The translations under genes were made by a program, and so were the position numbers. The notes under the pieces were generated by a model. That model worked only from the letters and a program-made list of their open reading frames with translations. It searched no databases and was not told the DNA's origin. This document shows, in pieces, positions 10,832 through 55,021 of a stretch of DNA of 64,000 bases (position 1 is the stretch's first letter; every line of letters starts with the position of its first letter). Source of the DNA: a bacterium (GTDB lineage: Bacteria > Patescibacteriota > Minisyncoccia > Phycocordibacterales > UBA1006); contig JBAWXN010000001.1 in the NCBI GenBank assembly GCA_037144045.1, positions 134,744 through 198,743 of the forward strand. Direction: 5' to 3'.

Positions 10832-12247
10832 TTATTTTTTCGTAACCTGTTGTTCAACACCGTTGTCTTTTACTATAAACCCGAGGGATTCAATTTCATT
10901 ACGGATCTCATCAGATCGGGTGAAATTTTTATCAGCACGAGCTTGTGATCGTTCTGCAAGAAGCCTCACAACCGTATCAGGAATTTCTATAGTTTCTGGT
11001 TGAGCAAGATCGAGTCCAAGAATACGATCAAAATCAAGAATAGTTGCTTTTTTATCCGCATCGGACACATCATTTTTTTTCAAAAGCTCCCAAACCGTTG
11101 CCAGTCCACTTGCGGTATTAAGGTCATCATTCATGATTTCTTTAAAAAGAGTTTGGTATGATTCTGAGACTGTCCCACCATTGGGAAACTGTTGAATAGT
11201 CGTTCGCAATTTACGGAGCGCAGTTTGCGAAGCAGTAAGCGCGTCCCACGTAAAGTTTTGCTTTGATCGATAATGTGCCTGAAGGAAGAAATAGCGCAAT
11301 GCGAGAGGTTCAAATCCATGGTCAATAATGTCGGACATGAGGTATGAGGTTCCTTCAGATTTCGCCATTTTTTTACCGTCCACCATTAAGTGTTCGTTGT
11401 GCAACCAATAGTTTACGAAGTGTTTATGGTTTGCACAGGTTGATTGTGCAATTTCATTCGTGTGATGAATAGGAATGTGTTCAATACCTCCAAGGTGAAT
11501 ATCGAATGTTTCACCAAGGAAGTGTTTACTCATCGCAGAACATTCAATATGCCATCCAGGAAATCCACGACCGTTTTCTACGAGTGGTGACATAAAAGGT
11601 GATTCCCAAGTCTGAAGCGCATTTGCGTGAGCTCCAACTTTGAAAAACCAAAGGGCAAAATCGTGAGGATTTTTTTTACTGGTATCTACAGCATCACCGT
11701 GACCTGTACCGGTTTCTTGTAGATCAAGCTTTTGACCTGAAAGTTTCGTATAGTCAGGATACTTTGAAACATCGAAATATACTGCTGAATCGGTAGTATA
11801 AGCAAATCCATCATCAAGGAGCTGAACGACCATTGCGATCATGTCGTTAATGTGTTCGGTTGCTTTAGGTGTGTTGGTAGGTGGTAACGTATTGAGTGAT
11901 GCGATATCGCGATTGTAGAGTTCGATGTATTTATTCGCAATTTCATCAGGTGATAATTGTTCGCGCTGTACGGCTTTTGTCATACGGTCAATTCCAGTGT
12001 CTGCATCCCCAATATTGTCACCGGTGAGGTGACCGACATCGGTGTAGTTACGCACCAAGGTAACTTTGTAATTATTGTATTCAAACGTGCGACGCAAAAA
12101 ATCCGCAATTACTACTGCGCGCATATTTCCAATATGTTGATTCCAGTACACGGTTGGTCCACAGTGATACATGCCTACAACACCTTCAGTGATAGGGGTA
12201 AAGAGTTCTTTTTCGTGGGAAAAGGTGTTGGTCAAGTAGATATTCAT
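10832..12247 (-). CDS. cysS: Cysteinyl-tRNA synthetase
   Basis: Class I HIGH motif (CGPTVYWNQHIGN) and KMSKS (KMAKSEG). The length fits CysRS and there is a CysRS-type anticodon-binding C-terminus. Confidence 0.93.
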   Translation of the reverse strand: MNIYLTNTFSHEKELFTPITEGVVGMYHCGPTVYWNQHIGNMRAVVIADFLRRTFEYNNYKVTLVRNYTDVGHLTGDNIGDADTGIDRMTKAVQREQLSPDEIANKYIELYNRDIASLNTLPPTNTPKATEHINDMIAMVVQLLDDGFAYTTDSAVYFDVSKYPDYTKLSGQKLDLQETGTGHGDAVDTSKKNPHDFALWFFKVGAHANALQTWESPFMSPLVENGRGFPGWHIECSAMSKHFLGETFDIHLGGIEHIPIHHTNEIAQSTCANHKHFVNYWLHNEHLMVDGKKMAKSEGTSYLMSDIIDHGFEPLALRYFFLQAHYRSKQNFTWDALTASQTALRKLRTTIQQFPNGGTVSESYQTLFKEIMNDDLNTASGLATVWELLKKNDVSDADKKATILDFDRILGLDLAQPETIEIPDTVVRLLAERSQARADKNFTRSDEIRNEIESLGFIVKDNGVEQQVTKK

Positions 12248-13730: not shown

Positions 13731-14690
13731 ATGAAAGAAAAAACGCACCAACCAGGAACTGGTGACTCAGAAAAACCTGCATTAATAACGGACTTAACCA
13801 ATCTCGCATTGGCCGGGCCTATGGGATTATCATTCCCAAAAGAAGTAGGAATTAAGCAGTTCGATGATCTGAAAGTCGTACTTCCATTATTTACTCAGCT
13901 CGCAGCAGCGGCTCAAAAGCGCAAGCTTTCATTAGATGATATTGCCGGAGCTCTTGGAGTTCAGGGATCAACTACTGTACAAGGTCGCACGTTCTATTCA
14001 CCCGAACAGTCTGATGTGGTAAAAAACATATCAATTGCTTTTGAGTTGGAACAGGATGAGGCAGAACGTAACCGATTATGGAAATTACTTGATTTTGCGT
14101 TAAAGTATGAAATTCTCATACCAGAAACTGAGTCAATTAATACTGTCATTTACGAATTGTTTTCTATCGAACCTGATGTGGTTCGTAAGGCATTCATGAA
14201 AAAATTTGGCTTTGCCAAACCAGCTGAAGACCCTGTAAATAAATCACAGGCGTACGGTATTTGGGATGAAGAAGTTGCAGGACAACTTGCATCTATTTTG
14301 TCACAATTACCGAAAGAAGATGTTACTGATATTTTAAAAGCATTTAACCCGGCTGTGTTGTATTTACTTACTTCATTTGAGGTAAGTGCGTATGTGGGAA
14401 TTGAGGTAGAACGACGCACTGAAATCATGTGCGCACTTCATTACCATGACTTGATTCCAGCGGAATGTCCGTTGTTTCAATTCATTCAGGAAAATGCTCA
14501 TGAAGTATTTGAACATGTAAAGACAAATTTTCTTAATTCCGATTTTACAACGAGCCGACATCAAATACATGAAGAAGCTGATCGTTTGTATGGAGAAAAA
14601 ATGGTGCGATATACCGAGCAACCACCAACAGACGAAGAGGTCCTTGAAGACCTCGTTGATCAAATCGACAAAACCAACACTAATGGGTGA
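13731..14690 (+). CDS. Hypothetical acidic protein (319 aa), first gene of a coupled pair
   Basis: Clean ORF with no signal peptide, TM helix or known motif. A possible promoter (TTGACA, 17 nt, TATTGT) lies at about 13665-13700. Its stop overlaps the start of the next gene. Confidence 0.5.
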   Translation: MKEKTHQPGTGDSEKPALITDLTNLALAGPMGLSFPKEVGIKQFDDLKVVLPLFTQLAAAAQKRKLSLDDIAGALGVQGSTTVQGRTFYSPEQSDVVKNISIAFELEQDEAERNRLWKLLDFALKYEILIPETESINTVIYELFSIEPDVVRKAFMKKFGFAKPAEDPVNKSQAYGIWDEEVAGQLASILSQLPKEDVTDILKAFNPAVLYLLTSFEVSAYVGIEVERRTEIMCALHYHDLIPAECPLFQFIQENAHEVFEHVKTNFLNSDFTTSRHQIHEEADRLYGEKMVRYTEQPPTDEEVLEDLVDQIDKTNTNG

Positions 14691-16557
14691 AAAGAAACGC
14701 AAGGCAAAACCCGCCAACGAAGGAGATCTTCCGTTGGCGGTTAAACGCCAGTCGAAACGGCCAAGTATTTTAAAGAAAACCCACTACAGAAGAAAGACTT
14801 TTGATGAAGGGACTAGCTTGGCTCAACTCGAAGAAAACAGTAAGCGATATGCGATACCTGAGAAAATTATTCGCCTGTGTAGTGAAATTGCTAAACGACA
14901 ATACGTTAATCACAATTTCAAACGGGAAAACCTGGAATGGATCCAGGAACAGGTGTTACGTATTGCAATACTGCTTACGGGTTGTCTTGAACGACAACTT
15001 ATTACTGATGCTGATATCGACAAAGCAGCGACCCCTGATAATGTGTTTCAGCTGCTTAAAAAAGCACTCGGAATTGAACAGTATCAGGTCATGATTGATA
15101 ACAGTACCCTTAAACAGAGAGTGCTTAAGCTGGCACAAGAAAGTACTAATTGGGCTGCAATTTCAGAATTTCGTTATCGAGTATTTATCCCGGCAACAAC
15201 ACCGCAACCTTGTTTGGCGTATCTTGATAAATATCAGGCTGCGATCAAAAGTTTAAAATATCGAGTGCGTTTGTTCGAAATCGTTGAAGATAATGTTCCA
15301 AAAAAAGATCGAGAACATTTCATCGGAATAAAAAATGGTTTTGGAGATAATAAAAAAACACTTTATTATTCTTTACAGGCAATCATTGGTAATTTAGTGT
15401 TGCTTACGTATTTTCAAGCTCGTACCGAGAAAAAAACAGTTGATGACTTTATTGAATTAAAGGATTACTGCAGAAGTAACTTTGAAGAGTTTAAAGCGCG
15501 CTTTCGCGAAACGCTTCATAGCATTATAAAGCCAGAAGCATTCGCTGATGGTATCCTTGCACTCCCTGAGGTGGTTACTAGTTTAAAAAAACTTGAAGAC
15601 CGTGCCAAAAATGGTACTGTCAACAATTTCTTATCTTTCTTCGGTGCTGATCCTGAAATTAGAAAGCTTAACTATAAGCTCAGTAAGGTGGTCATTGAAG
15701 TAGGAAGATGGTGCTATCTACGTAAAGTGCAAGAACTGTCGAGTAATCCTGTTGATTTTGTTTCCCCGTCACTTGCTAAAGCAGCAAACGACGAGTACTT
15801 AGAATTCTTGGATGAATATCCTTGGTTTGCAAAGTTCTTGTCCAAGCTAGAAATAGTAAGGTATTTGATTGCAGAAACCGATGATCAGCGAAAAGCAACT
15901 ATCCGTGGCTTTGTAAATCAGGAACGATTGGGTGAAGCACAGCAGTTGCTTGAAAAACAGGTAACCATTGGTGTCATGTTGAAACACTTTTTAGCGAGTA
16001 ATAGTGACCAACAGGAATCGATCGAAATCAGCGAGCTTATTGCAGAACTGTCACGCAAGAATTTGGGTCGATTAGCGAAAGACCGCCATGTCCGTAGAGC
16101 GCAATTATACATTGATCGACTGCTTACCAAATGGAGTGACACGACTATCATTGATGCAATTCTCGACTTTGAATTACCTGACTATGTGGTGCAGTTGTTT
16201 CCTGTAAGTTACCAGCATTACTTATGGTATTTATATCAATTTAATCTGCTGGGGCGTACTGATTGGAAGCCACCGTTTCCGTATCCTCAAGGAGTACTCG
16301 AACATGTTACTCCTACGGATGTTGACCGCTATGTTAAGAGTCGGGACGACCATAAAAAAATGCGTGAAATGAAAAAAGAAGCAGAGAACAACATTTCAGG
16401 TAGTTCGAAAAAAGATACCGTAACAATTACTGAAGAATCGGATAATGGCGAAGAGTTTAATGATTTTGAAACCATTGAAACGGAAGTTGTAGACGATATG
16501 AGAACTCCAGGTTCAGACGATGCTGATGAGGAGGAAATCCTTAATGGTAAAATATAA
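14683..16557 (+). CDS. Hypothetical large protein (624 aa) with a basic N-terminus and a strongly acidic C-terminal tail
   Basis: Start ATG at 14683 lies inside ATGGGTGA, overlapping the upstream stop by 8 nt. The ORF track starts earlier at 14569, in overlap. No recognisable domain. The C-terminus reads EESDNGEEFNDFETIETEVVDDMRTPGSDDADEEE. Confidence 0.5.
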   Translation: MGEKKRKAKPANEGDLPLAVKRQSKRPSILKKTHYRRKTFDEGTSLAQLEENSKRYAIPEKIIRLCSEIAKRQYVNHNFKRENLEWIQEQVLRIAILLTGCLERQLITDADIDKAATPDNVFQLLKKALGIEQYQVMIDNSTLKQRVLKLAQESTNWAAISEFRYRVFIPATTPQPCLAYLDKYQAAIKSLKYRVRLFEIVEDNVPKKDREHFIGIKNGFGDNKKTLYYSLQAIIGNLVLLTYFQARTEKKTVDDFIELKDYCRSNFEEFKARFRETLHSIIKPEAFADGILALPEVVTSLKKLEDRAKNGTVNNFLSFFGADPEIRKLNYKLSKVVIEVGRWCYLRKVQELSSNPVDFVSPSLAKAANDEYLEFLDEYPWFAKFLSKLEIVRYLIAETDDQRKATIRGFVNQERLGEAQQLLEKQVTIGVMLKHFLASNSDQQESIEISELIAELSRKNLGRLAKDRHVRRAQLYIDRLLTKWSDTTIIDAILDFELPDYVVQLFPVSYQHYLWYLYQFNLLGRTDWKPPFPYPQGVLEHVTPTDVDRYVKSRDDHKKMREMKKEAENNISGSSKKDTVTITEESDNGEEFNDFETIETEVVDDMRTPGSDDADEEEILNGKI

Positions 16558-30248: not shown

Positions 30249-30405
30249 TATTTGAAGATTTTTTGTTAGTGAACATTTTTCGCATTATAACATAAATCAC
30301 TATCTGTTTCAAGGCTTCTGCGACCTCTGGTAGATTAACTTCCTTCTTAAAATTTGTGTAGTTGACTCTTCGACTCTTCTGCTCCGTATCTCTCTTCTCG
30401 CTAGA

Positions 30406-30461
30406 CTTCGTACATCGTTCCGGTATGTTCGTGTGTATGGACCAAACAACGATGTACGGAG
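30406..30461 (+). promoter_or_regulatory. 14-bp inverted repeat (1 mismatch) upstream of the recombinase gene; candidate recombination or regulatory site
   Basis: CTTCGTACATCGTT (30406-30419) ... AACGATGTACGGAG (30448-30461) with a 28-nt spacer. The 10-bp core GTACATCGTT / AACGATGTAC is perfect. Confidence 0.4.
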
Positions 30462-30472
30462 CCCAAATAGGC

Positions 30473-31759
30473 ATGACACCGGTACTACAGGCGGAACCAA
30501 TCCGATACTGCCTCTACGCCCGTAAATCAAGCGAGGCCGAAGAGAAGCAGGCACTCTCGATTGATTCTCAAATAAAGGAAATGCTTGCAATTGCCCAGCG
30601 CGATAACTTGAACATCATAGAGATGTATCGCGAATCTCACTCCGCGAAAGACTGCGGGCAACGGCCTGTGTTCAACAAACTGCTCATCGACATTCGCGAG
30701 GGAAAGTTTGACGGCATACTTGTCTGGCACCCCGACCGACTTTCACGAAATGCCGGAGATCTCGGAGCAATTGTTGATCTACTCGATCAGAAGAAATTGA
30801 TTGAGATCAGGACTTATAGCCAACGGTTCACCAATAATCCAAATGAAAAGTTTCTACTCATGATTCTCGGCTCACAAGCTAAGCTCGAGAATGATAATAA
30901 GAGCATCAATGTGAAGCGAGGATTGAAAACAAAATGCGAGATGGGACTGTGGCCGAGTGTCGCACCAACCGGATATTTAAACTCAAAGAATAGAGATCAG
31001 AAAGGCGTCATTTTTGTAGACCCGGATCGTGGATCAACAATCAAAGAAATCTTTACTCGAGTCGCCTATCAAGGAGCAAGCGGTAGAAAAATCTTCAAAT
31101 GGTTACGGGAAATCAAATTTGTAACGCGAACCGGAAAACCTCTGACCTTGAGCAATATCTACGTTATTTTGAATAATCACTTTTACCACGGCACATTTGA
31201 GTACCCTAAAGCGAGCGGTCGATGGTTTAGGGGTAAGCATGTACCACTAATTACTAAAGAGCTATTTGATGAGGCGCAAAAACAACTTCAATTACAAAGA
31301 AAAGTTAGAGGCAAGAATAAGGAGTTCGCTTTTACCAAACTCATGTCTTGCGGCCTTTGCGGATCTGGTATCACCGCTGAAGAGAAGTATAAAAATCTTA
31401 AAGATGGATCAGTGAACAAATATATTTATTATGGTTGTACACGTGCGCGAGATTCAAACTGCAAGGGTGGGTATGTTGAAGAAAAAGTATTGATTGCTCA
31501 ACTACTTGAGTTGATGGATAAGATTGATCTTGATAAGTCGGGTATCAAGAAAAAGCTTGAGGTGGAAATTGAGCGGCACAAGAAATTTCATTCAGGGATC
31601 ATGGGCAAACCAAACGCTGAATACTATGTCAAAGATGTAGACATACGAAATTATGCGAAATATCTTTTATCCGATGGTTCAATGTTTGAGAAGCGAGACT
31701 TACTTACTTGCCTGAAGAGCAGACTCTCTTTAGAGAATAAAATACTCACTTTAAATTAG
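30473..31759 (+). CDS. Large serine recombinase (resolvase/invertase catalytic domain + recombinase domain + zinc ribbon)
   Basis: YCLYARKSS (catalytic Ser), HPDRLSRNAGD, a central recombinase domain, and Cys pairs (CGLCGS ... CTRARDSNC) for the zinc ribbon. About 48% GC. Start at Met 30473; the ORF track starts at 30362. Confidence 0.88.
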   Translation: MTPVLQAEPIRYCLYARKSSEAEEKQALSIDSQIKEMLAIAQRDNLNIIEMYRESHSAKDCGQRPVFNKLLIDIREGKFDGILVWHPDRLSRNAGDLGAIVDLLDQKKLIEIRTYSQRFTNNPNEKFLLMILGSQAKLENDNKSINVKRGLKTKCEMGLWPSVAPTGYLNSKNRDQKGVIFVDPDRGSTIKEIFTRVAYQGASGRKIFKWLREIKFVTRTGKPLTLSNIYVILNNHFYHGTFEYPKASGRWFRGKHVPLITKELFDEAQKQLQLQRKVRGKNKEFAFTKLMSCGLCGSGITAEEKYKNLKDGSVNKYIYYGCTRARDSNCKGGYVEEKVLIAQLLELMDKIDLDKSGIKKKLEVEIERHKKFHSGIMGKPNAEYYVKDVDIRNYAKYLLSDGSMFEKRDLLTCLKSRLSLENKILTLN

Positions 31760-32664
31760 TGACCTGCGAGAAGTTTGGCAAGCTCAAATATTATTCCTTG
31801 AGCAATAACATTCCCAGCAACTCCTTCAAAGATAGTCTTTAAAGAAGTCAGTGCTATCTTGATTTTTGACTGCTCAGGGAGGTCTTTAGACATTTCTTCC
31901 TTTAGTTCCCTTGCTAGGGTTTGAACATTCTCTGTTTCTTCTACTTGTAGTTTTATCTCAGGAAGAAATTTTTGTATCTGATTCACTAAATCAATCACTT
32001 TTTCTTGAGAAAATCCGTTTGCTTGCTGGATGGAAACATTCGCCTGGTCACTAATACTTCCAATCGTTCCGGCAAAATTTTCTATATGACCAATACTATA
32101 ATTTGTATTAGCAATTTGAGCTTTCTCCTTATCTGTCTGGGAAAAAGAAATACCTTCTCCAACAACCCCTGCTTTTTCAAGTTTTAGAGCCGTATCTAGG
32201 ATGCGATTACGCACAGCATCTAATATCCCCGTAACAGCACTCCTGCCGATCATAAATCCTACATTCGTTTCGTGACCAATTGATTCCATAATGCTTTTCT
32301 TTACTGCATTACTGTAGCTGATTTCAAAAGTGCTAGAATCTGTTTTTACAAGATCATCAAGTTGTCCTACAGGTGAAGTGAGACCTCTTTTCGACATAAG
32401 CTCTCCAGCTTCAGAGTTACCAAATATAATAGGTTGCCAACCGTGATATGGATTCCACGCTTTCGGTTCTCCAGTAATGATCCGATACTCAGGGAGATCT
32501 GCATTGGAAGGAGCATCATAACCATTTAGCTCTTTTTCTATCCAATCACCAAATTCAGTTAAATCAAGTTTAACAGCAACAATTTTTGCTTTTCTTAGCA
32601 AGTCTGAAACCGAGTTGGTGGTATTTGCAGCTTCACTTTGTAATTCTTGGATTATTGATGACAT
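31756..32664 (-). CDS. AbiTii-like abortive-infection protein (putative)
   Basis: N-terminal MSSIIQELQSEAANTTNSVSDLLRKAKIVAVKLDLTEFGDWIEKELNGY matches my recollection of the AbiTii N-terminal signature. The C-terminal half is helical/coiled-coil. Start moved to the internal Met (32664), because the ORF track extension overlaps a tRNA. Confidence 0.35.
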   Translation of the reverse strand: MSSIIQELQSEAANTTNSVSDLLRKAKIVAVKLDLTEFGDWIEKELNGYDAPSNADLPEYRIITGEPKAWNPYHGWQPIIFGNSEAGELMSKRGLTSPVGQLDDLVKTDSSTFEISYSNAVKKSIMESIGHETNVGFMIGRSAVTGILDAVRNRILDTALKLEKAGVVGEGISFSQTDKEKAQIANTNYSIGHIENFAGTIGSISDQANVSIQQANGFSQEKVIDLVNQIQKFLPEIKLQVEETENVQTLARELKEEMSKDLPEQSKIKIALTSLKTIFEGVAGNVIAQGIIFELAKLLAGH

Positions 32665-32709
32665 GTTATTTTTTGACCCCTCTAGGTCCTTCGATACTAA
32701 ACTAAACTG

Positions 32710-32780
32710 CTGCCAGACTTGGACTCGAACCAAGATAAACGGTACCAGAAACCGTTGTCCTACCATTAGACGATCTGGCA
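32710..32780 (-). tRNA. tRNA-Gln (anticodon CUG)
   Basis: Minus-strand cloverleaf TGCCAGATCGTCTAATGGTAGGACAACGGTTTCTGGTACCGTTTATCTTGGTTCGAGTCCAAGTCTGGCA plus discriminator G. Anticodon loop TTCTGGT. Its 3' end faces the recombinase islet. Confidence 0.85.
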
Positions 32781-32907
32781 ATGGTTCCAAAATAACCCAG
32801 AAGGGAATATATCAGAATTGCTCGGACAGTATAGTACCTTTTGATAAAAAATCAAATGTGTGCTATAGTATAATCCAATTTGTTCATAAAAATCCCTTTG
32901 AGTACGC

Positions 32908-34183: not shown

Positions 34184-34393
34184 ATGATTACGAACGAGGA
34201 CTACAAAAAATTACAAGAAATGCTTAAAGCAACTATTAAGGAGGAGCTTAAAACGTCTTGGGAACTCCATTCGAAAGACTTTCAAGAATTTGTAGTTGAT
34301 CACTTACAGAAATTGTACGAAGGACAAGAAAAACTTATAGTCCAAGTAGAAAATATTCATTTACGATTAAAAATGCGAAAAAAATATGACTAA
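34184..34393 (+). CDS. Small hypothetical protein (69 aa), overlapping the trpS start by 8 nt
   Basis: ORF only; charged and helical. Possibly translationally coupled to trpS. Confidence 0.3.
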   Translation: MITNEDYKKLQEMLKATIKEELKTSWELHSKDFQEFVVDHLQKLYEGQEKLIVQVENIHLRLKMRKKYD

Positions 34394-35327
34394 AAAAATT
34401 CTCCTATCAGGAGTAAAACCAACAGGACGACCCCATATTGGAAATTATTTTGGAGCCATGAAGCAATTTGTTGATCTTCAAGAAGAATACGAATCATATG
34501 TAATGCTAGCAAACTATCATGCAGTGACTTCTATTCATAATGGCGATGAATTGCGTAAACTTACTCATGATCTTATTTTAGATTACTTAGCAATTGGACT
34601 TGATCCAAAAAAAGTAGTTCTCTTTAAACAATCAGATGTCGTTGAACATACAGAACTCGCGTGGATTTTTGATTGTGTTACTACGATGCCGTATTTGATG
34701 CGAGCACATGCTTTTAAGGATGCCGAAGCAAAAGATCATGAAATCAATGTAGGCGTATTTAACTATCCTATGCTCATGGCTGCAGACATTCTTATGTATG
34801 ATGCTGATGTGGTACCAGTAGGGCGCGATCAAAAACAACATATTGAATATACGCGCGATACGGCTCAGAAATTTAACAATACGTTCGGTGAAGTATTTAA
34901 GCTTCCTAAGGATTTAATCCTTGAATCGGTTGAAACAGTACCAGGAATCGATGGGCAAAAAATGTCTAAATCTTATGGTAATGTTATTCCATTATTCGGA
35001 ACTGATGAAGAAATCACTAAGGCAGTAATGAGTATTGTCACTGATTCAGGTTCTGATATTCCTACGAATGTATACGCTATTCATAAATTGTTTAAATCAG
35101 AGGCAGAATTGGCTCCATTGTACGAAGCACACAAAGGGAAGTATAAAGCGCTTAAAGACGCATTATTGGCCGATATTTTGGCCCTAGTAACCCCAATGCG
35201 TGAACGACGACAATATTATGCAGATCGACCTGACGAGGTCGCTGCGATCCTTGCTGAAGGTGCACAGCGTGCTCAAGCAAAAGCACAAGCCAAAATGAAA
35301 ATTGTCCGTGAAAAAGTAGGACTCTAA
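34386..35327 (+). CDS. trpS: Tryptophanyl-tRNA synthetase
   Basis: HIGH-type motif (TGRPHIGNY), KMSKS and a TrpRS-size class I Rossmann fold. Confidence 0.93.
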   Translation: MTKKILLSGVKPTGRPHIGNYFGAMKQFVDLQEEYESYVMLANYHAVTSIHNGDELRKLTHDLILDYLAIGLDPKKVVLFKQSDVVEHTELAWIFDCVTTMPYLMRAHAFKDAEAKDHEINVGVFNYPMLMAADILMYDADVVPVGRDQKQHIEYTRDTAQKFNNTFGEVFKLPKDLILESVETVPGIDGQKMSKSYGNVIPLFGTDEEITKAVMSIVTDSGSDIPTNVYAIHKLFKSEAELAPLYEAHKGKYKALKDALLADILALVTPMRERRQYYADRPDEVAAILAEGAQRAQAKAQAKMKIVREKVGL

Positions 35328-38640: not shown

Positions 38641-40032
38641 TTATTTAGTTGGTTGTTGTTTTTTGGTTGCTGCTTGAACCGCTTTGCAATGACTCAGGCA
38701 AGAGCTATACAATGGGCATGATGTACCATTTGCAACCTTAACGCAGATGCCGGCTTGGCACTGTTTCTGATTGCGGGTATCGAATTGCTTCTTTACCACG
38801 ATTTGAATAGCGTTCACCACATCCTGAGTGCCCAATTCTTTTCCTATTAGGCCAGGAGCATCAGGATCAGCCTTAGAACCGTTCATGATGATATTCATAT
38901 TATCATCGAAGTAAAGTTCTGGTACCTCATAATGAGTACCGTACTGGCCAATAGTGTCGAAACGTAATCCTTTACCAGTGCGCTTAAACGAAATCTTTTG
39001 TTGCAAAATACGTAACACGTCCGGCATAAACTGCTCGAATCCTGCTTGTGGCATGATTACGAATTGTTTGCCCGCGCCCGGCATAGCTGTTTTCTTCACC
39101 AAAAGCAGTATCCCTAGGGTGCGATTAGCACTTTTTGGGTTTTTGCTTTGGATAGCTTTAGCTGCGAGCCGGTTGTCACTTACCATGGTCATAAGTACAG
39201 GATAATTTTCACCAGGTAGTGAAATAGCGCTCGCTTGAACCGTGTCTTTTTGTAAATCGTACTCAGCACATGCCTTAAGGAATAATTCACGTTGTTCAAC
39301 GTGGAACGCAATAAAATTTTGCGCTGTGTTGAAGACGTTTAGAAATCCTTGCTCATCAGCAGGTTCAATGGTTTCATAACCTTTTTTAATAGCACCCGCT
39401 ATCGTGCTTGTTTGCATAAATCCAAGCATTTCGGATTCCTCTTTACTGATACGCAAAGCGTCTTCGGTAACCGGCTCGCCTTGCTTTTCAATAGCAGATT
39501 TTTTTGCGCGCTGTAGGTTTTTCTTTAAATTATCACCGTGGTTATCCTCATAATTGATATACTCAATTACAGGGCCTAACAAGTCACGGTTCCTTTTTTC
39601 TGCATACAGGTCAAGATGGCGTTTAACTAATTCTGTGCATGAAATCTTGCTTTTACGATCTCCGTGCTCATCAAGTGGACCCTTGCCTAAACCAATAAGT
39701 AGGTAACCTTGCTTTAAAGCCTTTAAAAAGCCTTTAAAGTTGAGGTAATTCGCGTTACGCAGTTTCGTTTCCGAAATTACTGCTGGCAGTGCCTGTTCTA
39801 CGCCTGGGAATAACTTGCGCCCTTCTACTGTATTTCTCAGTATGTAAAATGCAGCATGTGCATCCATTGAAGGGGAATGTCTGAAACCGATAATTTTGAT
39901 TCCTGTGATAGGAATGCGGAAGTTCCAAGCTTCCATCAATTCTTCATCGGTTGCAGTTGAGCAGTCGGTGATGGTGAAAGTAAACTTTCTTGTTGGTTTG
40001 CTTTTTTGGTTTGTTGTCGCTGTTACGCTCAT
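38641..40032 (-). CDS. Hypothetical protein with a C-terminal Cys cluster (463 aa)
   Basis: No TM helix or signal peptide. The C-terminal CQAGICVKVANGTSCPLYSSCLSHC is a possible metal-binding knuckle. The gene is monocistronic, with its own terminator. Confidence 0.45.
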   Translation of the reverse strand: MSVTATTNQKSKPTRKFTFTITDCSTATDEELMEAWNFRIPITGIKIIGFRHSPSMDAHAAFYILRNTVEGRKLFPGVEQALPAVISETKLRNANYLNFKGFLKALKQGYLLIGLGKGPLDEHGDRKSKISCTELVKRHLDLYAEKRNRDLLGPVIEYINYEDNHGDNLKKNLQRAKKSAIEKQGEPVTEDALRISKEESEMLGFMQTSTIAGAIKKGYETIEPADEQGFLNVFNTAQNFIAFHVEQRELFLKACAEYDLQKDTVQASAISLPGENYPVLMTMVSDNRLAAKAIQSKNPKSANRTLGILLLVKKTAMPGAGKQFVIMPQAGFEQFMPDVLRILQQKISFKRTGKGLRFDTIGQYGTHYEVPELYFDDNMNIIMNGSKADPDAPGLIGKELGTQDVVNAIQIVVKKQFDTRNQKQCQAGICVKVANGTSCPLYSSCLSHCKAVQAATKKQQPTK

Positions 40033-40099
40033 GTTGTTAAGTTTTTAATGTTATCTTGTGGCTACCTGCACAAGTTCAGGTTATTTTTACAATTATAGC

Positions 40100-40309
40100 A
40101 TAATATGACTCATAAGTCAAGTATTCTCAAGGGTTTTTGACTGTGCTATAGTAGCCTTGTATTTAAAGACCCAATTGACACTTGGCGAGAATACAAATCC
40201 CAAAAGAAGTCCAAAGTAGGGTGGCACCGCGTTTCCTTCGAAGAATCGCCCCTGCAAATGTATTTATACGTTTGAAGAGGCGATTTTTCGTTTCTTCATA
40301 AAAGACTTT
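40100..40309 (+). promoter_or_regulatory. T-box riboswitch leader of aspS
   Basis: T-box core AAGTAGGGTGGCACCGCG (40214-40231) matches the consensus AAUUAGGGUGGNACCGCG. Downstream terminator stem GAAGAATCGCC (40240-40250) / GGCGATTTTTC (40279-40289) plus a U-tract. Candidate GAC specifier at about 40170-40180. Confidence 0.55.
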
Positions 40310-41725
40310 ATGAAAAACAGGGTATTAATTAATGATTTACAAAATCATGTAGACCAGGAGGTAGTTATTGGTGCGTGGGTAGATACTCGTCGTGACCAAG
40401 GTAAAATGATCTTTTTCGAATTTCGAGACCGAACCGGAAAAGTTCAGGGAGTAACCTTACCTAATAGCGCAGCTCTTGAAGTTGCAAAAACGTTACGAGG
40501 TGAGTGGGTCGTTGCCGTTACTGGAAAAGTAAATAAACGTCCAGAACGAAATGTTCAAGCAGACAAGCAAAATGGTGATATTGAACTTGAGGTGCTCGGT
40601 ATCGAAGTACTGAACGAATCAGAAACACCCGTGTTTGATATTTCAACAGACACCCGAGCAATCGGTGAAGAAGTGCGATTACGTCATAAATACCTCGACA
40701 TGCGCAGTGATCGTGTACAGAAAAATATTCGTATGCGTGCCCATGTTGCAAAATTTGTGAGAGACTTCTTAGCTAATGAAGGATTTATTGAAGTAGAAAC
40801 ACCACTCCTTACTAAATCAACCCCAGAAGGAGCCCGTGACTTTATTGTTCCAGCACGGCTATATCCAGGAAACTTTTATGCGCTTCCGCAATCACCGCAA
40901 CAATATAAACAATTGTTAATGACGGGTGGAATTGAACGGTATTTCCAGGTTGCAAAATGTTTACGTGATGAAGACTCACGTGGAGACCGTCAGCCAGAAT
41001 TTACCCAAATCGATATGGAATTGTCATTTGTGCAACAAGAAGACGTAATGGATGTAAATGAACGCTTGTTGATTAAGGTAGTTCAAGAACTCTATCCTGA
41101 TAAAAAAATTCAACAAATTCCATTTCCTCGTATTACCTATAAAGATGCCATGGAAAAATATGGAAACGATCGTCCAGATTTACGTGAAGACAAGACCGAT
41201 CCTAATTTACTCGCATTTTGTTGGGTAGTAGATTTTCCATTTTTTGAACGAACTGATAAATCAGACAATCCTGATACTCACGGTGAATGGACATTTACCC
41301 ATAATCCATTCTCAGCGCCTAAACCAGAACATATGGACTGGTTAATGAATAAAGAAAACATCGGTGATATTCTTACGACTCAGTATGATATCGCCCTCAA
41401 TGGATACGAAATTGGAGGTGGTTCAATTCGTAACCATAAACCAGATCGATTGCGTAAAGTATTTGAAATCATGGGACATGACCCGGCTGATATTGAATCA
41501 AACTTCGGGCACATGCTTAAGGCATTTTCGTTCGGTACACCACCACACGGGGGTATTGCGTGGGGATTTGATCGTTTGATGATGTTGCTTCAAAACGAAC
41601 CAAATATTCGTGAAGTAATTCCGTTCCCAAAAACAGGGGAAGGAAAAGACTTGATGATGGATTCACCAGCTCCTGTTTCTGATAAACAGTTGAACGAACT
41701 CCAAATTATTGTGAAAAAAGTGTAA
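40310..41725 (+). CDS. aspS: Aspartyl-tRNA synthetase, archaeal/eukaryotic-type short form (no GAD insertion)
   Basis: N-terminal OB anticodon-binding domain. Class II motifs (FYALPQSPQQYKQLLM, FRDEDSRGDRQPEFTQIDMEL, GGSIR). 471 aa, versus about 590 aa for bacterial-type AspRS. Confidence 0.88.
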   Translation: MKNRVLINDLQNHVDQEVVIGAWVDTRRDQGKMIFFEFRDRTGKVQGVTLPNSAALEVAKTLRGEWVVAVTGKVNKRPERNVQADKQNGDIELEVLGIEVLNESETPVFDISTDTRAIGEEVRLRHKYLDMRSDRVQKNIRMRAHVAKFVRDFLANEGFIEVETPLLTKSTPEGARDFIVPARLYPGNFYALPQSPQQYKQLLMTGGIERYFQVAKCLRDEDSRGDRQPEFTQIDMELSFVQQEDVMDVNERLLIKVVQELYPDKKIQQIPFPRITYKDAMEKYGNDRPDLREDKTDPNLLAFCWVVDFPFFERTDKSDNPDTHGEWTFTHNPFSAPKPEHMDWLMNKENIGDILTTQYDIALNGYEIGGGSIRNHKPDRLRKVFEIMGHDPADIESNFGHMLKAFSFGTPPHGGIAWGFDRLMMLLQNEPNIREVIPFPKTGEGKDLMMDSPAPVSDKQLNELQIIVKKV

Positions 41726-53678: not shown

Positions 53679-53755
53679 ACTCCTTAGTATGATTCATGGT
53701 CATCAATAAACGATAAATTGCGAAATAGTGTTATTTTTGTTAGACTGTGCGCATT

Positions 53756-55021
53756 ATGTTAGACATTAAATTCATCCGAGAAAATCCGGAGCTTATTCGG
53801 GAGGCTGCTCGCAAAAAGCATATCAACTTTAATGTAGATGAATTAATATCCTCGGATCAAAAGCGTGTTGAAAAATTATCAGTAGTAGAATCGTTACGCG
53901 CAGAGCAAAACCTGGTTTCAGATAAAATCCCAAGTGCAAGTCCAGAAGAACGTCAGGCACTTATTGCTCAAATGAGTCTCTTAAAAGAAGATTTAAAAAA
54001 GCATGAGGAAGAATTAAAAGTTATTATGACGGACTGGCAAAAGCTGATGCTTGCGGTGCCCAACGTGCCAGATATCTCTGTTCCAGAAGGTGATTCAGAT
54101 GCCGGGAATATGGAAGAACGAGTGTGGGGTGATAAGCCTGCATTTAATTTCCCAGTGAAAGACCATATTGCATTATGCGAAGACCTTGATTTAGCTGATT
54201 TTGAACGTGGTGCAAAAGTTGCTGGGTTTCGAGGATATTTCCTTAAAAATGAAGCAGTGCTCATTGAAATGGCGTTGTGGCAAATGTTCAATGAAAAATT
54301 AGTGAATAAAGGATTTACGCCAATGATTGTTCCATCGCTTGTTAATAAAAAAACTCTCGTAGGAACCGGATATTTACCAGGAGGTGAAGACGACTTATAT
54401 CGCACTCAAGACGATGAATACTTAGCGGGAACCGGTGAAGTGGCAACAATGTCTTATTACAGTGATGAAATAATTGACGGTTCACAATTACCGATTAAAC
54501 TTGCTGCATTTAGTCCTTGTTTCCGTCGTGAAGCAGGATCACACAGTAAGGACACAAAAGGACTTATTCGTGTTCATGAATTCTTCAAACTGGAACAAGT
54601 AGTATTATGTGAAGCATCACATACAGCGTCAGTTGCGCTCCACGAGGAAATTACCACGAACGTTGAGGAACTCTTGCAAGAGCTCGAATTGCCGTATCAT
54701 GTAGTAGTGAATTGTGGAGGCGACCTCGGTCAGGGACAAGTGAAAAAATATGATATTGAAGTATGGATGCCGTCTCAAAATACGTATCGAGAAACCCATT
54801 CAGCGTCTTATTTCCATGATTATCAAACACGACGTTTAAATATTCGTTATCGTGATTCTGAAGGTAAATTACGGTTTGTGCATTCATTGAATAATACCGC
54901 CGTGGCAACCCCTCGTATTGTTGCGTGTATTCTTGAAAATTATCAGCAAGCTGACGGAACCATTAAAATTCCTACGGTTTTGCAAAAATATATTAATAAA
55001 GAACTCATTGTAAAAAAATAA
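53756..55021 (+). CDS. serS: Seryl-tRNA synthetase
   Basis: N-terminal coiled-coil arm (MLDIKFIRENPELIREAA) and class II motifs (FRREAGSHSKDTKGLIRVHEFFKLE, GDLG ... YDIEVWMPS, TAVATPR). Confidence 0.93.
   Translation: MLDIKFIRENPELIREAARKKHINFNVDELISSDQKRVEKLSVVESLRAEQNLVSDKIPSASPEERQALIAQMSLLKEDLKKHEEELKVIMTDWQKLMLAVPNVPDISVPEGDSDAGNMEERVWGDKPAFNFPVKDHIALCEDLDLADFERGAKVAGFRGYFLKNEAVLIEMALWQMFNEKLVNKGFTPMIVPSLVNKKTLVGTGYLPGGEDDLYRTQDDEYLAGTGEVATMSYYSDEIIDGSQLPIKLAAFSPCFRREAGSHSKDTKGLIRVHEFFKLEQVVLCEASHTASVALHEEITTNVEELLQELELPYHVVVNCGGDLGQGQVKKYDIEVWMPSQNTYRETHSASYFHDYQTRRLNIRYRDSEGKLRFVHSLNNTAVATPRIVACILENYQQADGTIKIPTVLQKYINKELIVKK

What the first reader, a model, noticed from the sequence alone, without database searches (positions are those of the whole stretch)
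40100..40309. T-box riboswitch leader controlling an archaeal-type aspS
AAGTAGGGTGGCACCGCG at 40214-40231 matches the T-box consensus AAUUAGGGUGGNACCGCG. It is followed by a terminator (GAAGAATCGCC...GGCGATTTTTC + U-tract) ending about 15 nt before the aspS ATG. The variable N is C, which would pair with the G73 discriminator of tRNA-Asp. A GAC triplet in an upstream loop region (about 40175) is a candidate specifier. T-boxes are mainly a Firmicutes/Actinobacteria feature. Finding one on a GAD-less (archaeal-type, probably non-discriminating) AspRS in a small-genome bacterium is taxonomically informative and may be uncommon.
Basis: partly seen in the sequence, partly recalled or inferred. Interest (0 to 1): 0.55.

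Follow-up and report, generated by a model that had tools for sequence, protein, structure and literature searches.

The report
Stripped-down T-box leader before aspS
The aspartyl-tRNA synthetase gene of this tiny-genome (CPR/Parcubacteria) bacterium is preceded by a real but drastically reduced T-box tRNA-sensing RNA switch that lacks every accessory domain current models consider necessary, so it may show the smallest form in which this kind of switch can work.

Summary
AAGUAGGGUGGCACCGCG lies at 40214-40231, inside an antiterminator (40218-40253) that shares a strand with a terminator hairpin (40239-40290, then a U tail) just upstream of aspS. GAC at 40177-40179 is the specifier.

Rfam's T-box model fails here (19 bits against a gathering score of 93; only the 3' part matches). 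Comparison rescues the call: 12 of 80 related Parcubacteria aspS loci carry the same element. Covariation supports the antiterminator and a tiny Stem I, in which a K-turn is capped by a 4-bp hairpin with GAC in a 7-nt apical loop.

A -10-like box 6-9 nt upstream of Stem I in 12 of 12 leaders puts the transcript start at about 40159, so no long Stem I exists. The window's leader also lacks:
- the elbow-binding double T-loop (IDTM);
- Stem II and its pseudoknot;
- the Stem III helix;
- the G.U sensor pair.

It still ends in a terminator, so it fits none of the four published T-box classes.

The enzyme is a bacterial-type AspRS without the GAD insert.

Verdict: a genuine T-box-derived aspS attenuator of a new minimal variant. 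Function has not been tested.

The parts
40124..40152 (+). Candidate sigma-70 promoter of the aspS leader: -35 TTCTCA (40124-40129), 17-nt spacer, extended -10 TGcTATAGT (TG 40144-40145, hexamer 40147-40152). It predicts a transcript start at about 40159.
   Evidence: Consensus scan, 9 of 12 matches with TG. A TAnnnT hexamer lies 6-9 nt upstream of the Stem I base in 12 of 12 related leaders, against 10.7% of background positions. The start site is inferred, not measured.
40159..40194 (+). Ultrashort Stem I. The C-stem is GUAUUU (40159-64) paired with GAAUAC (40189-94). A K-turn (GA motif) has bulge AAA 40165-67 and pairs G40168.A40188 and A40169.G40187, with C40170.C40186 next. The NC stem is CCAA (40171-74) paired with UUGG (40182-85), closing the apical loop UUGACAC (40175-81).
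   Evidence: Hand-registered alignment of 12 leaders: 92.6% of cells paired against 67.5% in shuffles, 6 of 10 pairs with changes on both sides, covariation 0.54 against 0.16, 0 of 500 shuffles reach it, and slid controls collapse. There is a compensatory change against the nearest relative L001 (GCAUUU/GAAUGC).
40177..40179 (+). Specifier triplet GAC (Asp codon), preceded by U40176 and followed by the conserved purine A40180. It lies in the apical loop.
   Evidence: GAC-A is conserved in 11 of 13 leaders. AAC-A (Asn) replaces it in L062 and L037, both also upstream of aspS.
40195..40217 (+). Single-stranded, purine-rich linker AAAUCCCAAAAGAAGUCCAAAGU. [quoted passage not shown] There is no Stem II, no IIA/B pseudoknot and no Stem III helix.
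   Evidence: Only 23-24 nt separate Stem I from helix A1. Alignment A2 shows the conserved pattern AnGAG-N1-4-AAAGUA. Relative L001 has a real 6-bp Stem III at this spot (GGGAG-GAUUGCuuuuGCAAUC-GAAGAA). Motif definition from PMC7583486.
40214..40231 (+). T-box sequence AAGUAGGGUGGCACCGCG. The 7-nt bulge UGGCACC (40222-40228) has its UGGC positioned to pair with a tRNA 3' end GCCA.
   Evidence: [A/G]GGUGG(C)ACC[A/G]CG is invariant or nearly so in all 13 leaders.
40218..40253 (+). Antiterminator. Helix A1 is AGGG (40218-21) paired with CCCU (40250-53). Helix A2 is GCG (40229-31) paired with CGC (40247-49), with an extension. The pair at the base of A2 is G40229-C40249, Watson-Crick rather than G.U.
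   Evidence: Rfam local alignment. Pair counts: 98.1% paired, 4 of 8 pairs compensatory, 0 of 500 shuffles. The A2 base pair is GC in 10 and AU in 3 leaders, never GU. Energy -12.4 kcal/mol.
40239..40299 (+). Intrinsic terminator: hairpin 40239-40290, whose 5' arm includes the antiterminator 3' strand CGCCCCU, followed by the U-rich tail UUUCUUCAU (40291-40299).
   Evidence: -26.5 to -27.1 kcal/mol against -12.4 for the antiterminator. Equivalent hairpins with U tails occur in all 12 other leaders. The simple scan missed it because part of the U run pairs within the stem.
40310..41725 (+). aspS, the regulated gene: a 471-aa bacterial-type aspartyl-tRNA synthetase without the GAD insertion domain.
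   Evidence: Pfam tRNA-synt_2 and tRNA_anti-codon only, no GAD. TIGR00459 557 bits, above its cut-off; TIGR00458 is below its cut-off. The PDB alignment is split around the GAD position.

Best explanation
The leader (about 40159-40309) is a tRNA-Asp-sensing T-box transcription attenuator in a minimal architecture.

Proposed mechanism:
1. Transcription starts at the base of a 36-nt Stem I. There a K-turn carries a 4-bp hairpin that displays U-GAC-A in a 7-nt loop laid out like an anticodon loop.
2. The GUC anticodon of tRNA-Asp pairs with GAC.
3. If the tRNA is uncharged, its 3' GCCA pairs with UGGC in the 7-nt bulge. This stabilises the weak antiterminator (A1 and A2, -12 kcal/mol), and RNA polymerase reads through into aspS.
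4. If the tRNA is charged or absent, the much stronger terminator (-27 kcal/mol), which uses the same CGCCCCU strand, forms and transcription stops at the U tract.

Shown here: the sequence elements, their conservation, covariation of Stem I, A1 and A2, the mutually exclusive terminator, restriction to aspS, and the absence of IDTM, Stem II, the pseudoknot, the Stem III helix and the G.U pair.

Inferred: the transcript start, tRNA binding, sensing of aminoacylation, and that the switch works without the missing domains. Possible compensations are the heptaloop acting like an anticodon loop in a loop-loop kissing complex, the retained purine-rich linker, or a protein helper.
For: Core T-box elements
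- Exact T-box sequence and antiterminator; local Rfam T-box match to model positions 183-216.
- The antiterminator covaries.
- Stem I (K-turn plus specifier hairpin) covaries. Its GAUGA...GAG signature matches the 5' and 3' K-turn positions of the Rfam consensus as displayed.

Specificity
- The specifier is an Asp codon, or an Asn codon in 2 loci, always upstream of aspS. The bulge base is C in 12 of 13 leaders.
- A covariance model of the discriminator finds only these 13 aspS leaders in 571 kb. It finds none at the window's cysS, serS or trpS/tyrS genes.

Read-out
- The terminator overlaps the antiterminator and is about 15 kcal/mol more stable. Terminators are conserved in all leaders.

Maintenance over evolution
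- The element persists across AspRS divergence down to 51% identity. Carrier lineages are scattered over the AspRS tree, with short and long forms interleaved.
- After curation, all 6 leaders that keep a Stem II S-turn have 6-nt loops, and all 7 that lack it have loops of 7 nt or more.
- -10 boxes are placed 6-9 nt before Stem I in 12 of 12 leaders.
Against: - Rfam's T-box model scores only 19 bits (22-31 bits in relatives) against a gathering score of 93.
[quoted passage not shown] The window lacks all four. Direct tRNA binding and charge sensing are therefore not assured.
- No tRNA-Asp gene from this organism or its relatives was available to confirm GUC and G73.
- The Stem I alignment was registered by hand, so it leans towards the structure.
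- The transcript start is inferred.
- Only 13 sequences were available, and they are related to each other.
Confidence: 0.63

Rival explanations
1. It is a T-box relic. The leader descends from a T-box but lost tRNA responsiveness along with Stem II and Stem III. It now acts only as a constitutive or leaky terminator, or as a structure governed by something else, such as NTP levels or polymerase speed.
For: All accessory domains considered necessary for tRNA affinity and charge discrimination are absent (with PMC7583486). Most relatives have lost the leader altogether (68 of 81 loci), so it is dispensable.
Against: A relic should decay. Instead GAC-A, UGGC, the 7-nt bulge, the K-turn and both antiterminator helices are kept, with compensatory changes, in minimal forms whose AspRS is only 57-84% identical to the window's. 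The specifier changes only to AAC, the one other codon that makes sense for an AspRS. Minimal forms occur in several branches of the AspRS tree.
Confidence: 0.15
2. It is a protein-assisted T-box. The RNA still senses tRNA-Asp through the specifier and bulge, but a protein replaces the missing tRNA-clamping domains. Candidates are an L7Ae-family K-turn binder or a factor specific to this clade.
For: A well-formed K-turn is the most conserved feature of the reduced Stem I. K-turn-binding proteins (YbxF/YlxQ) are known partners of T-box K-turns (PMC7583486). The RNA alone lacks both known affinity aids.
Against: No candidate protein gene was identified next to the leader. The divergent 463-aa ORF has no recognisable family, and it is not established that it co-occurs with the leader. 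Nothing in the data requires a protein.
Confidence: 0.2
3. It is a chance resemblance, or a different RNA such as an AspRS-binding operator that mimics the tRNA-Asp anticodon arm.
For: Rfam gives no gathering-level T-box hit. Core matches with up to 2 mismatches occur at the chance rate.
Against: - The zero-mismatch core is expected about 0.015 times per window. It recurs upstream of aspS in 12 other genomes, with covarying helices.
- The apical loop shows the codon GAC, not the anticodon GUC, so it is not an anticodon-arm mimic for AspRS.
- No other Rfam family matches at E<0.3, apart from hairpin-driven noise.
Confidence: 0.02

Closest known systems
Class III T-box riboswitches (actinobacterial ileS, e.g. 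Nocardia farcinica and Mycobacterium tuberculosis; the 'ultrashort' Stem I type)
   Same: Short Stem I without IDTM. A K-turn at its base. The Specifier sits in a small apical loop followed by a purine. The T-box bulge and helices A1 and A2 are the same. The long-form relatives (L019, L021, L047, L062, L071, L037) also carry a Stem II with the GAA/AGUAGA S-turn signature. Except for L037 they also have an IIA/B-like pseudoknot, and they have 6-nt loops like class III (class definition in PMC10482949).
   Different: Class III requires Stem II and mostly controls translation by sequestering the ribosome-binding site. The window's leader has no Stem II or pseudoknot (24-nt linker), has a 7-nt loop, has no Stem III helix, uses an intrinsic terminator, is specific for Asp rather than Ile, and comes from CPR bacteria rather than Actinobacteria.
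Class II (glyQS) T-box riboswitches
   Same: A single-stranded linker takes the place of the Stem II domain. The read-out is transcription termination. The K-turn is followed by a flexible linker (PMC10482949; PMC7583486).
   Different: glyQS T-boxes keep a long Stem I with the elbow-binding IDTM, an internal-loop Specifier with an S-turn, and a Stem III helix. They are glycine-specific. The window has none of these features.
Canonical class I T-box leaders (Rfam RF00230; Bacillus subtilis tyrS type), including Firmicutes aspS leaders
   Same: T-box sequence, 7-nt UGGN-ACC bulge, competition between antiterminator and terminator, the K-turn GA motif (GAUGA...GAG), and specifier-plus-purine logic that matches the regulated aaRS.
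   Different: Missing here: distal Stem I (IDTM), specifier-loop S-turn, Stem II, pseudoknot, Stem III helix, and the G.U pair at the base of A2. The element scores 19 bits against the family's gathering score of 93.
Bacterial-type aspartyl-tRNA synthetase (TIGR00459; Thermus thermophilus AspRS1 6hhv/1efw; E. coli 1c0a)
   Same: The catalytic core and the N-terminal OB anticodon-binding domain are bacterial-type (E 1e-136 to Thermus AspRS1; TIGR00459 is above its cut-off).
   Different: The roughly 120-residue GAD insertion domain is missing. The alignment jumps from residue 295 to residue 420 of the Thermus chain. The protein is not archaeal-type: TIGR00458 is below its cut-off, and archaeal structures match only at 1e-44.

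Membership tests
T-box riboswitch (general) | Conserved T-box sequence that forms a 7-nt bulge (UGGN-ACC) between helices A1 and A2 of an antiterminator | tested here: met
   AGGG-UGGCACC-GCG...CGC-CCCU at 40218-40253. 98.1% of cells paired and 4 of 8 pairs compensatory across 13 leaders.
T-box riboswitch (general) | A mutually exclusive terminator (or sequestrator) that uses the 3' strand of the antiterminator | tested here: met
   The hairpin 40239-40290 includes CGCCCCU. It scores -27 against -12 kcal/mol, with a U-rich tail. It is conserved in all 13 leaders.
T-box riboswitch (general) | A Specifier trinucleotide in Stem I that matches the amino acid of the regulated gene, followed by a conserved purine | tested here: met
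   GAC-A at 40177-40180 upstream of aspS. GAC occurs in 11 of 13 leaders and AAC in 2 of 13.
T-box riboswitch (general) | The variable bulge base is complementary to the discriminator base (N73) of the cognate tRNA | not testable with these tools
   The bulge base is C in 12 of 13 leaders. This would pair with G73, which by general knowledge of bacterial tRNA-Asp and tRNA-Asn identity is the discriminator base. No tRNA-Asp gene is in the window or in any fetched locus.
T-box riboswitch (general) | A K-turn (GA motif) at the base of Stem I | tested here: met
   C-stem, 3-nt bulge, tandem G.A/A.G, then NC stem at 40159-40194. GA is invariant or nearly so on both strands, and both stems covary.
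T-box riboswitch (general) | Rfam RF00230 gathering score (93 bits) | tested here: not met
   19 bits, with model positions 183-216 only. Relatives score 22-31 bits.
Class I/II T-box (transcriptional) | [quoted passage not shown] | tested here: not met
   Stem I is 36 nt and the Specifier is in the apical loop. A -10 box 6-9 nt upstream in 12 of 12 leaders leaves no room for more 5' structure. There is no Rfam alignment to the Stem I positions.
Class I/III T-box | A Stem II domain with an S-turn, plus the Stem IIA/B pseudoknot | tested here: not met
   Only 23-24 unpaired nt lie between Stem I and A1 in the window. The domain is present in long-form relatives (GAA/AGUAGA S-turn signature).
T-box discriminator domain | A Stem III helix flanked by 5'-RRRxG ... 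AA-3' purines | tested here: inconclusive
   The helix is absent in the window and in 11 other leaders. AGAAG-UCC-AA occupies its place, so the purine flanks may be retained. L001 has the full GGGAG-Stem III-GAAGAA. Whether the flanks act as the purine string needs a structure.
T-box discriminator domain | A G.U wobble pair at the base of helix A2 (the steric sensor of the 3'-aminoacyl group) | tested here: not met
   G40229-C40249. Across the leaders the pair is GC in 10 and AU in 3, never GU.
Class III T-box | Controls translation by sequestering the ribosome-binding site | tested here: not met
   The hairpin ends 19 nt before the ATG and is followed by a U tract. It does not cover the region just upstream of the start codon.
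Archaeal-type (non-discriminating) AspRS, TIGR00458 | Scores above the family cut-off, and the closest structures are archaeal or AspRS2 enzymes | tested here: not met
   213 bits against a cut-off of 368. Archaeal PDB chains match at 1e-44, against 1e-136 for bacterial AspRS1.
Bacterial-type AspRS, TIGR00459 | Scores above the family cut-off; GAD insertion domain present | tested here: inconclusive
   The score is met (557 bits against a cut-off of 374). The GAD domain is absent. The protein is therefore a bacterial-type enzyme with an atypical domain make-up.

The most novel reading that the evidence does not exclude
The window carries a fifth architectural class of T-box. It is a natural, functional, transcription-terminating tRNA sensor of about 95 nt (Stem I to A1) that recognises tRNA-Asp through only two short pairings: a kissing contact between the anticodon and an apical heptaloop, and the NCCA-bulge pairing. 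It has no elbow platform, no Stem II clamp, no Stem III helix and no G.U steric sensor. Such forms would have arisen repeatedly from class III-like ancestors in genome-reduced CPR bacteria.
Probability: 0.45. Interest if true: 0.75.

Novelty: new variant of a known kind. Interest (0 to 1): 0.62.

Why it matters
Current structural models hold the following about T-boxes:
- A T-box needs either the elbow-binding IDTM or the Stem II S-turn to hold its tRNA.
- Stem III is indispensable.
- A G.U pair at the base of helix A2 senses the amino acid on the tRNA.

A conserved natural leader that lacks all four, yet keeps the specifier, the bulge and the terminator under selection, has two possible meanings. 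Either it defines the true minimal requirements of tRNA sensing by RNA, or it points to an unknown helper.

It would give a very small natural scaffold for structural and synthetic-biology work. It extends T-box regulation to CPR/Patescibacteria, where standard annotation (Rfam, and TBDB built on it) cannot see it. It also shows that one aaRS gene, aspS, keeps feedback control in otherwise stripped-down genomes. The Asn-specifier variants tie that control to the indirect Asn-tRNA pathway.

Tried and rejected
1. Rfam at the gathering threshold on the whole window found tRNAs only. This failure is itself a finding.

2. A long Stem I closed by GUAUUCUC (40121-28) paired with GAGAAUAC (40187-94) appears in the MFE fold of 40060-40312. 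I rejected it for three reasons:
- The 5' strand is not complementary in the nearest relative L001.
- That segment overlaps the -35/-10 promoter boxes.
- The local C-stem GUAUUU/GAAUAC covaries instead.

3. The single metagenome scan used TGACAN{30,60}HN{0,30}GGTGGCACCRCG. The pattern was too permissive. None had the K-turn and hairpin context, so the scan was wasted.

4. A viral-contig scan with a specific pattern found 0 hits.

5. MAFFT on the Stem I segments mis-registered rows with different loop lengths. I replaced it with a hand-registered, N-padded alignment.

6. ARAGORN found no tRNA-Asp in the window or the 80 loci.

7. The simple terminator scan missed the T-box terminator, so I checked terminators by folding instead.

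8. The idea of an AspRS-binding anticodon-arm mimic was rejected because the loop carries the codon, not the anticodon.

9. Vitreschak et al. 2008 is not held in the library.

10. A raw regex for the S-turn misclassified L049 and L021, and I curated those by eye.

Full report
**1. The observation**

AAGTAGGGTGGCACCGCG lies at 40214-40231, GAC at 40177-40179, and the aspS ATG at 40310. The region 40033-40309 is the gap between a divergent 463-aa ORF (38641-40032, minus strand) and aspS (40310-41725).

The zero-mismatch core GGGTGGNACCRCG occurs once in the window. About 0.015 copies are expected by chance (my arithmetic). Hits with up to 2 mismatches are at the chance level.

**2. The suggested test fails, but it misleads**

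Rfam 15 at the gathering threshold finds only three tRNAs in the window. On 451 nt with permissive filters, RF00230 aligns only model positions 183-216 of 219. This covers the T-box sequence and the antiterminator, at 19 bits against a gathering score of 93, E=0.039. Nothing aligns to Stem I, Stem II or Stem III.

**3. Host and enzyme**

The AspRS finds 597 or more relatives. The 80 retained are all CPR/Patescibacteria (Parcubacteria/Paceibacteria, Nomurabacteria and similar) at 50-84% identity, with proteins of similar length.

- The enzyme has tRNA-synt_2 and the OB anticodon-binding domain but no GAD domain.
- It passes the bacterial model TIGR00459 (557 bits, cut-off 374) and fails the archaeal/non-discriminating model TIGR00458 (213 bits, cut-off 368).
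- Its best solved relatives are bacterial AspRS of 580-620 aa. The alignment is split into residues 11-292 and 302-468, exactly around the GAD insert.

So this is a bacterial-type enzyme without GAD, not an archaeal-type one.

**4. Comparative evidence for the switch**

- Eleven of the 80 loci carry [A/G]GGUGGCACC[A/G]CG 90-200 nt upstream of aspS.
- A twelfth, L037, has a UGGU variant upstream of a two-gene operon: a 196-aa ORF followed by aspS.
- Rfam scores all of these at only 22-31 bits.
- On a 13-sequence alignment (A2), helices A1 and A2 flanking the 7-nt bulge are 98.1% paired. Four of 8 pairs show compensatory changes, 0 of 500 shuffles reach the score, and slid controls collapse.
- Every leader has a strong hairpin (-16 to -33 kcal/mol) that reuses the antiterminator 3' strand and is followed by a U-rich tail.
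- In the window the terminator (40239-40290, then UUUCUUCAU) scores -27 kcal/mol, against -12 kcal/mol for the antiterminator.

This is the classic T-box decision module with a transcriptional read-out.

**5. Stem I**

All complete leaders share one block: C-stem / 3-nt bulge / GA / N / 3-5 bp stem / apical loop N-(U/A)-GAC-A-(N) / stem / N / GA / C-stem.

In the window:
- the C-stem is GUAUUU (40159-64) paired with GAAUAC (40189-94);
- the bulge is AAA;
- the tandem pairs are G40168.A40188 and A40169.G40187;
- the upper stem is CCAA paired with UUGG;
- the loop is UUGACAC.

This is a standard K-turn capped by a hairpin. Its GAUGA...GAG signature matches the K-turn positions of the Rfam consensus as displayed.

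On a hand-registered alignment (A4) the ten pairs are 92.6% paired, against 67.5% in shuffles. Six pairs change on both sides, covariation is 0.54 against 0.16 (0 of 500 shuffles), and slid controls collapse. The caveat is that I registered the alignment to fit the structure.

The window and its nearest relative L001 differ by a compensatory change in the C-stem.

A TAnnnT -10-like hexamer, often with an upstream TG, lies 6-9 nt before the C-stem in 12 of 12 leaders, against 10.7% of background positions. In the window this is TTCTCA-17-TGcTATAGT at 40124-40152. The transcript therefore very probably starts at about 40159, and no longer Stem I can exist.

The long-range helix in the MFE fold is rejected on these grounds.

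**6. What is missing**

Definitions come from PMC7583486 and PMC10482949. The window's leader lacks:
- the IDTM;
- the specifier-loop S-turn;
- Stem II and the IIA/B pseudoknot (only 23-24 unpaired nt link Stem I to A1);
- the Stem III helix (AGAAG-UCC-AA sits where RRRxG-Stem III-AA should be);
- the G.U pair at the base of A2, which is GC in 10 leaders and AU in 3, never GU.

Those papers state that:
- transcriptional T-boxes generally require the IDTM;
- Stem III is indispensable;
- binding is aided by the IDTM, the Stem II S-turn, or both.

Of the four published classes, the window combines the class III Stem I with the class II linker and a terminator. It fits none of them.

**7. Variation among relatives**

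- Six leaders (L019, L021, L047, L062, L071, L037) keep a Stem II with the GAA/AGUAGA S-turn signature. All but L037 also keep a pseudoknot-like IIA/B. These are class III-like but end in terminators.
- Seven leaders (window, L001, L005, L017, L022, L049, L050) lack the S-turn. L001 alone has a real Stem III.
- After curation, all 6 S-turn forms have 6-nt loops, and all 7 forms without it have loops of 7 nt or more. The raw regex table gives Fisher p=0.03.
- On an AspRS NJ tree (no support values) carrier lineages are scattered, and short and long forms are interleaved. This suggests an ancestral leader with repeated loss and repeated trimming.
- Most loci without the leader have aspS packed directly behind the preceding gene.
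- Two leaders carry AAC (Asn) in place of GAC. This makes sense if those AspRS also charge tRNA-Asn.

**8. Specificity**

A covariance model of the discriminator finds only the 13 aspS leaders in 571 kb of CPR sequence. The window's cysS (10832-12247), trpS/tyrS-type gene (34386-35327) and serS (53747-55021) have no such element.

**9. Prior knowledge**

- Full-text searches found no paper that links T-box riboswitches with CPR, Patescibacteria or Parcubacteria.
- TBDB was built from RF00230 plus an Actinobacteria-only model, and it discarded sequences under 100 nt. It would have missed these leaders.
- The library is incomplete, so prior description elsewhere cannot be excluded.

**10. Verdict**

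This is a genuine T-box-derived attenuator of aspS, probably sensing tRNA-Asp, in a minimal architecture outside the described classes. I rate it a new variant of a known kind.

- Confidence that it is T-box-derived and works by competition between terminator and antiterminator is high.
- Confidence that it senses tRNA charge unaided is moderate.

Noticed in passing
window 40310-41725; L001-L080: Bacterial-type AspRS without the GAD insertion domain (about 460-470 aa) appears to be the norm across at least 80 Parcubacteria/Paceibacteria genomes. I found no paper describing this in the searchable library.
   Followed up: partly
L062:2799-2801 and L037:207-209: Two related aspS leaders carry AAC (Asn) instead of GAC in the apical specifier loop. 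L037 also has UGGU in the bulge. This suggests that these AspRS are non-discriminating and are regulated by tRNA-Asn.
   Followed up: partly
L037:187-1146: Here the T-box controls a two-gene operon: a 196-aa ORF at 554-1144, then aspS. About 200 nt of GC-rich, apparently structured spacer lies between the terminator and the first ORF.
   Followed up: no
L049:2855-2880; L001:751-832: There are lineage-specific insertions. L049 has a 24-nt hairpin inserted into the 3' strand of the Stem I K-turn region. L001 has a greatly extended helix A2 and is the only leader with a Stem III helix.
   Followed up: partly
window 38641-40032 (-): A 463-aa ORF divergent from aspS has no Pfam or NCBIfam match. 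Its own near-consensus promoter (TTGACT-17-TATAAT with TG, 40120-40092 on the minus strand) sits back-to-back with the aspS leader promoter.
   Followed up: partly
window 30362-32790: A large serine recombinase (30362-31759) and an AbiTii-family protein (ORF 31756-32790) sit next to tRNA-Gln(CTG) at 32709-32780. The ORF call overlaps the tRNA. This may be a small integrated element at a tRNA gene.
   Followed up: no
window 13731-16557: Two sizeable ORFs (319 aa at 13731-14690 and 662 aa at 14569-16557) have no Pfam match at E<=1e-5.
   Followed up: no
window 40175-40181 and equivalent loops in relatives: The apical loop reads U-GAC-A, or U-AAC-A in L062. It is potentially complementary to five tRNA anticodon-loop positions (U33-G34-U35-C36-A37), not just three. 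Loops have 7 nt or more wherever Stem II is absent. The possible extended kissing contact is untested.
   Followed up: partly
L021:423-514: A sub-threshold Rfam 'tmRNA' hit is in fact a tRNA-Ser(GCT) gene with an encoded CCA end, according to ARAGORN.
   Followed up: yes
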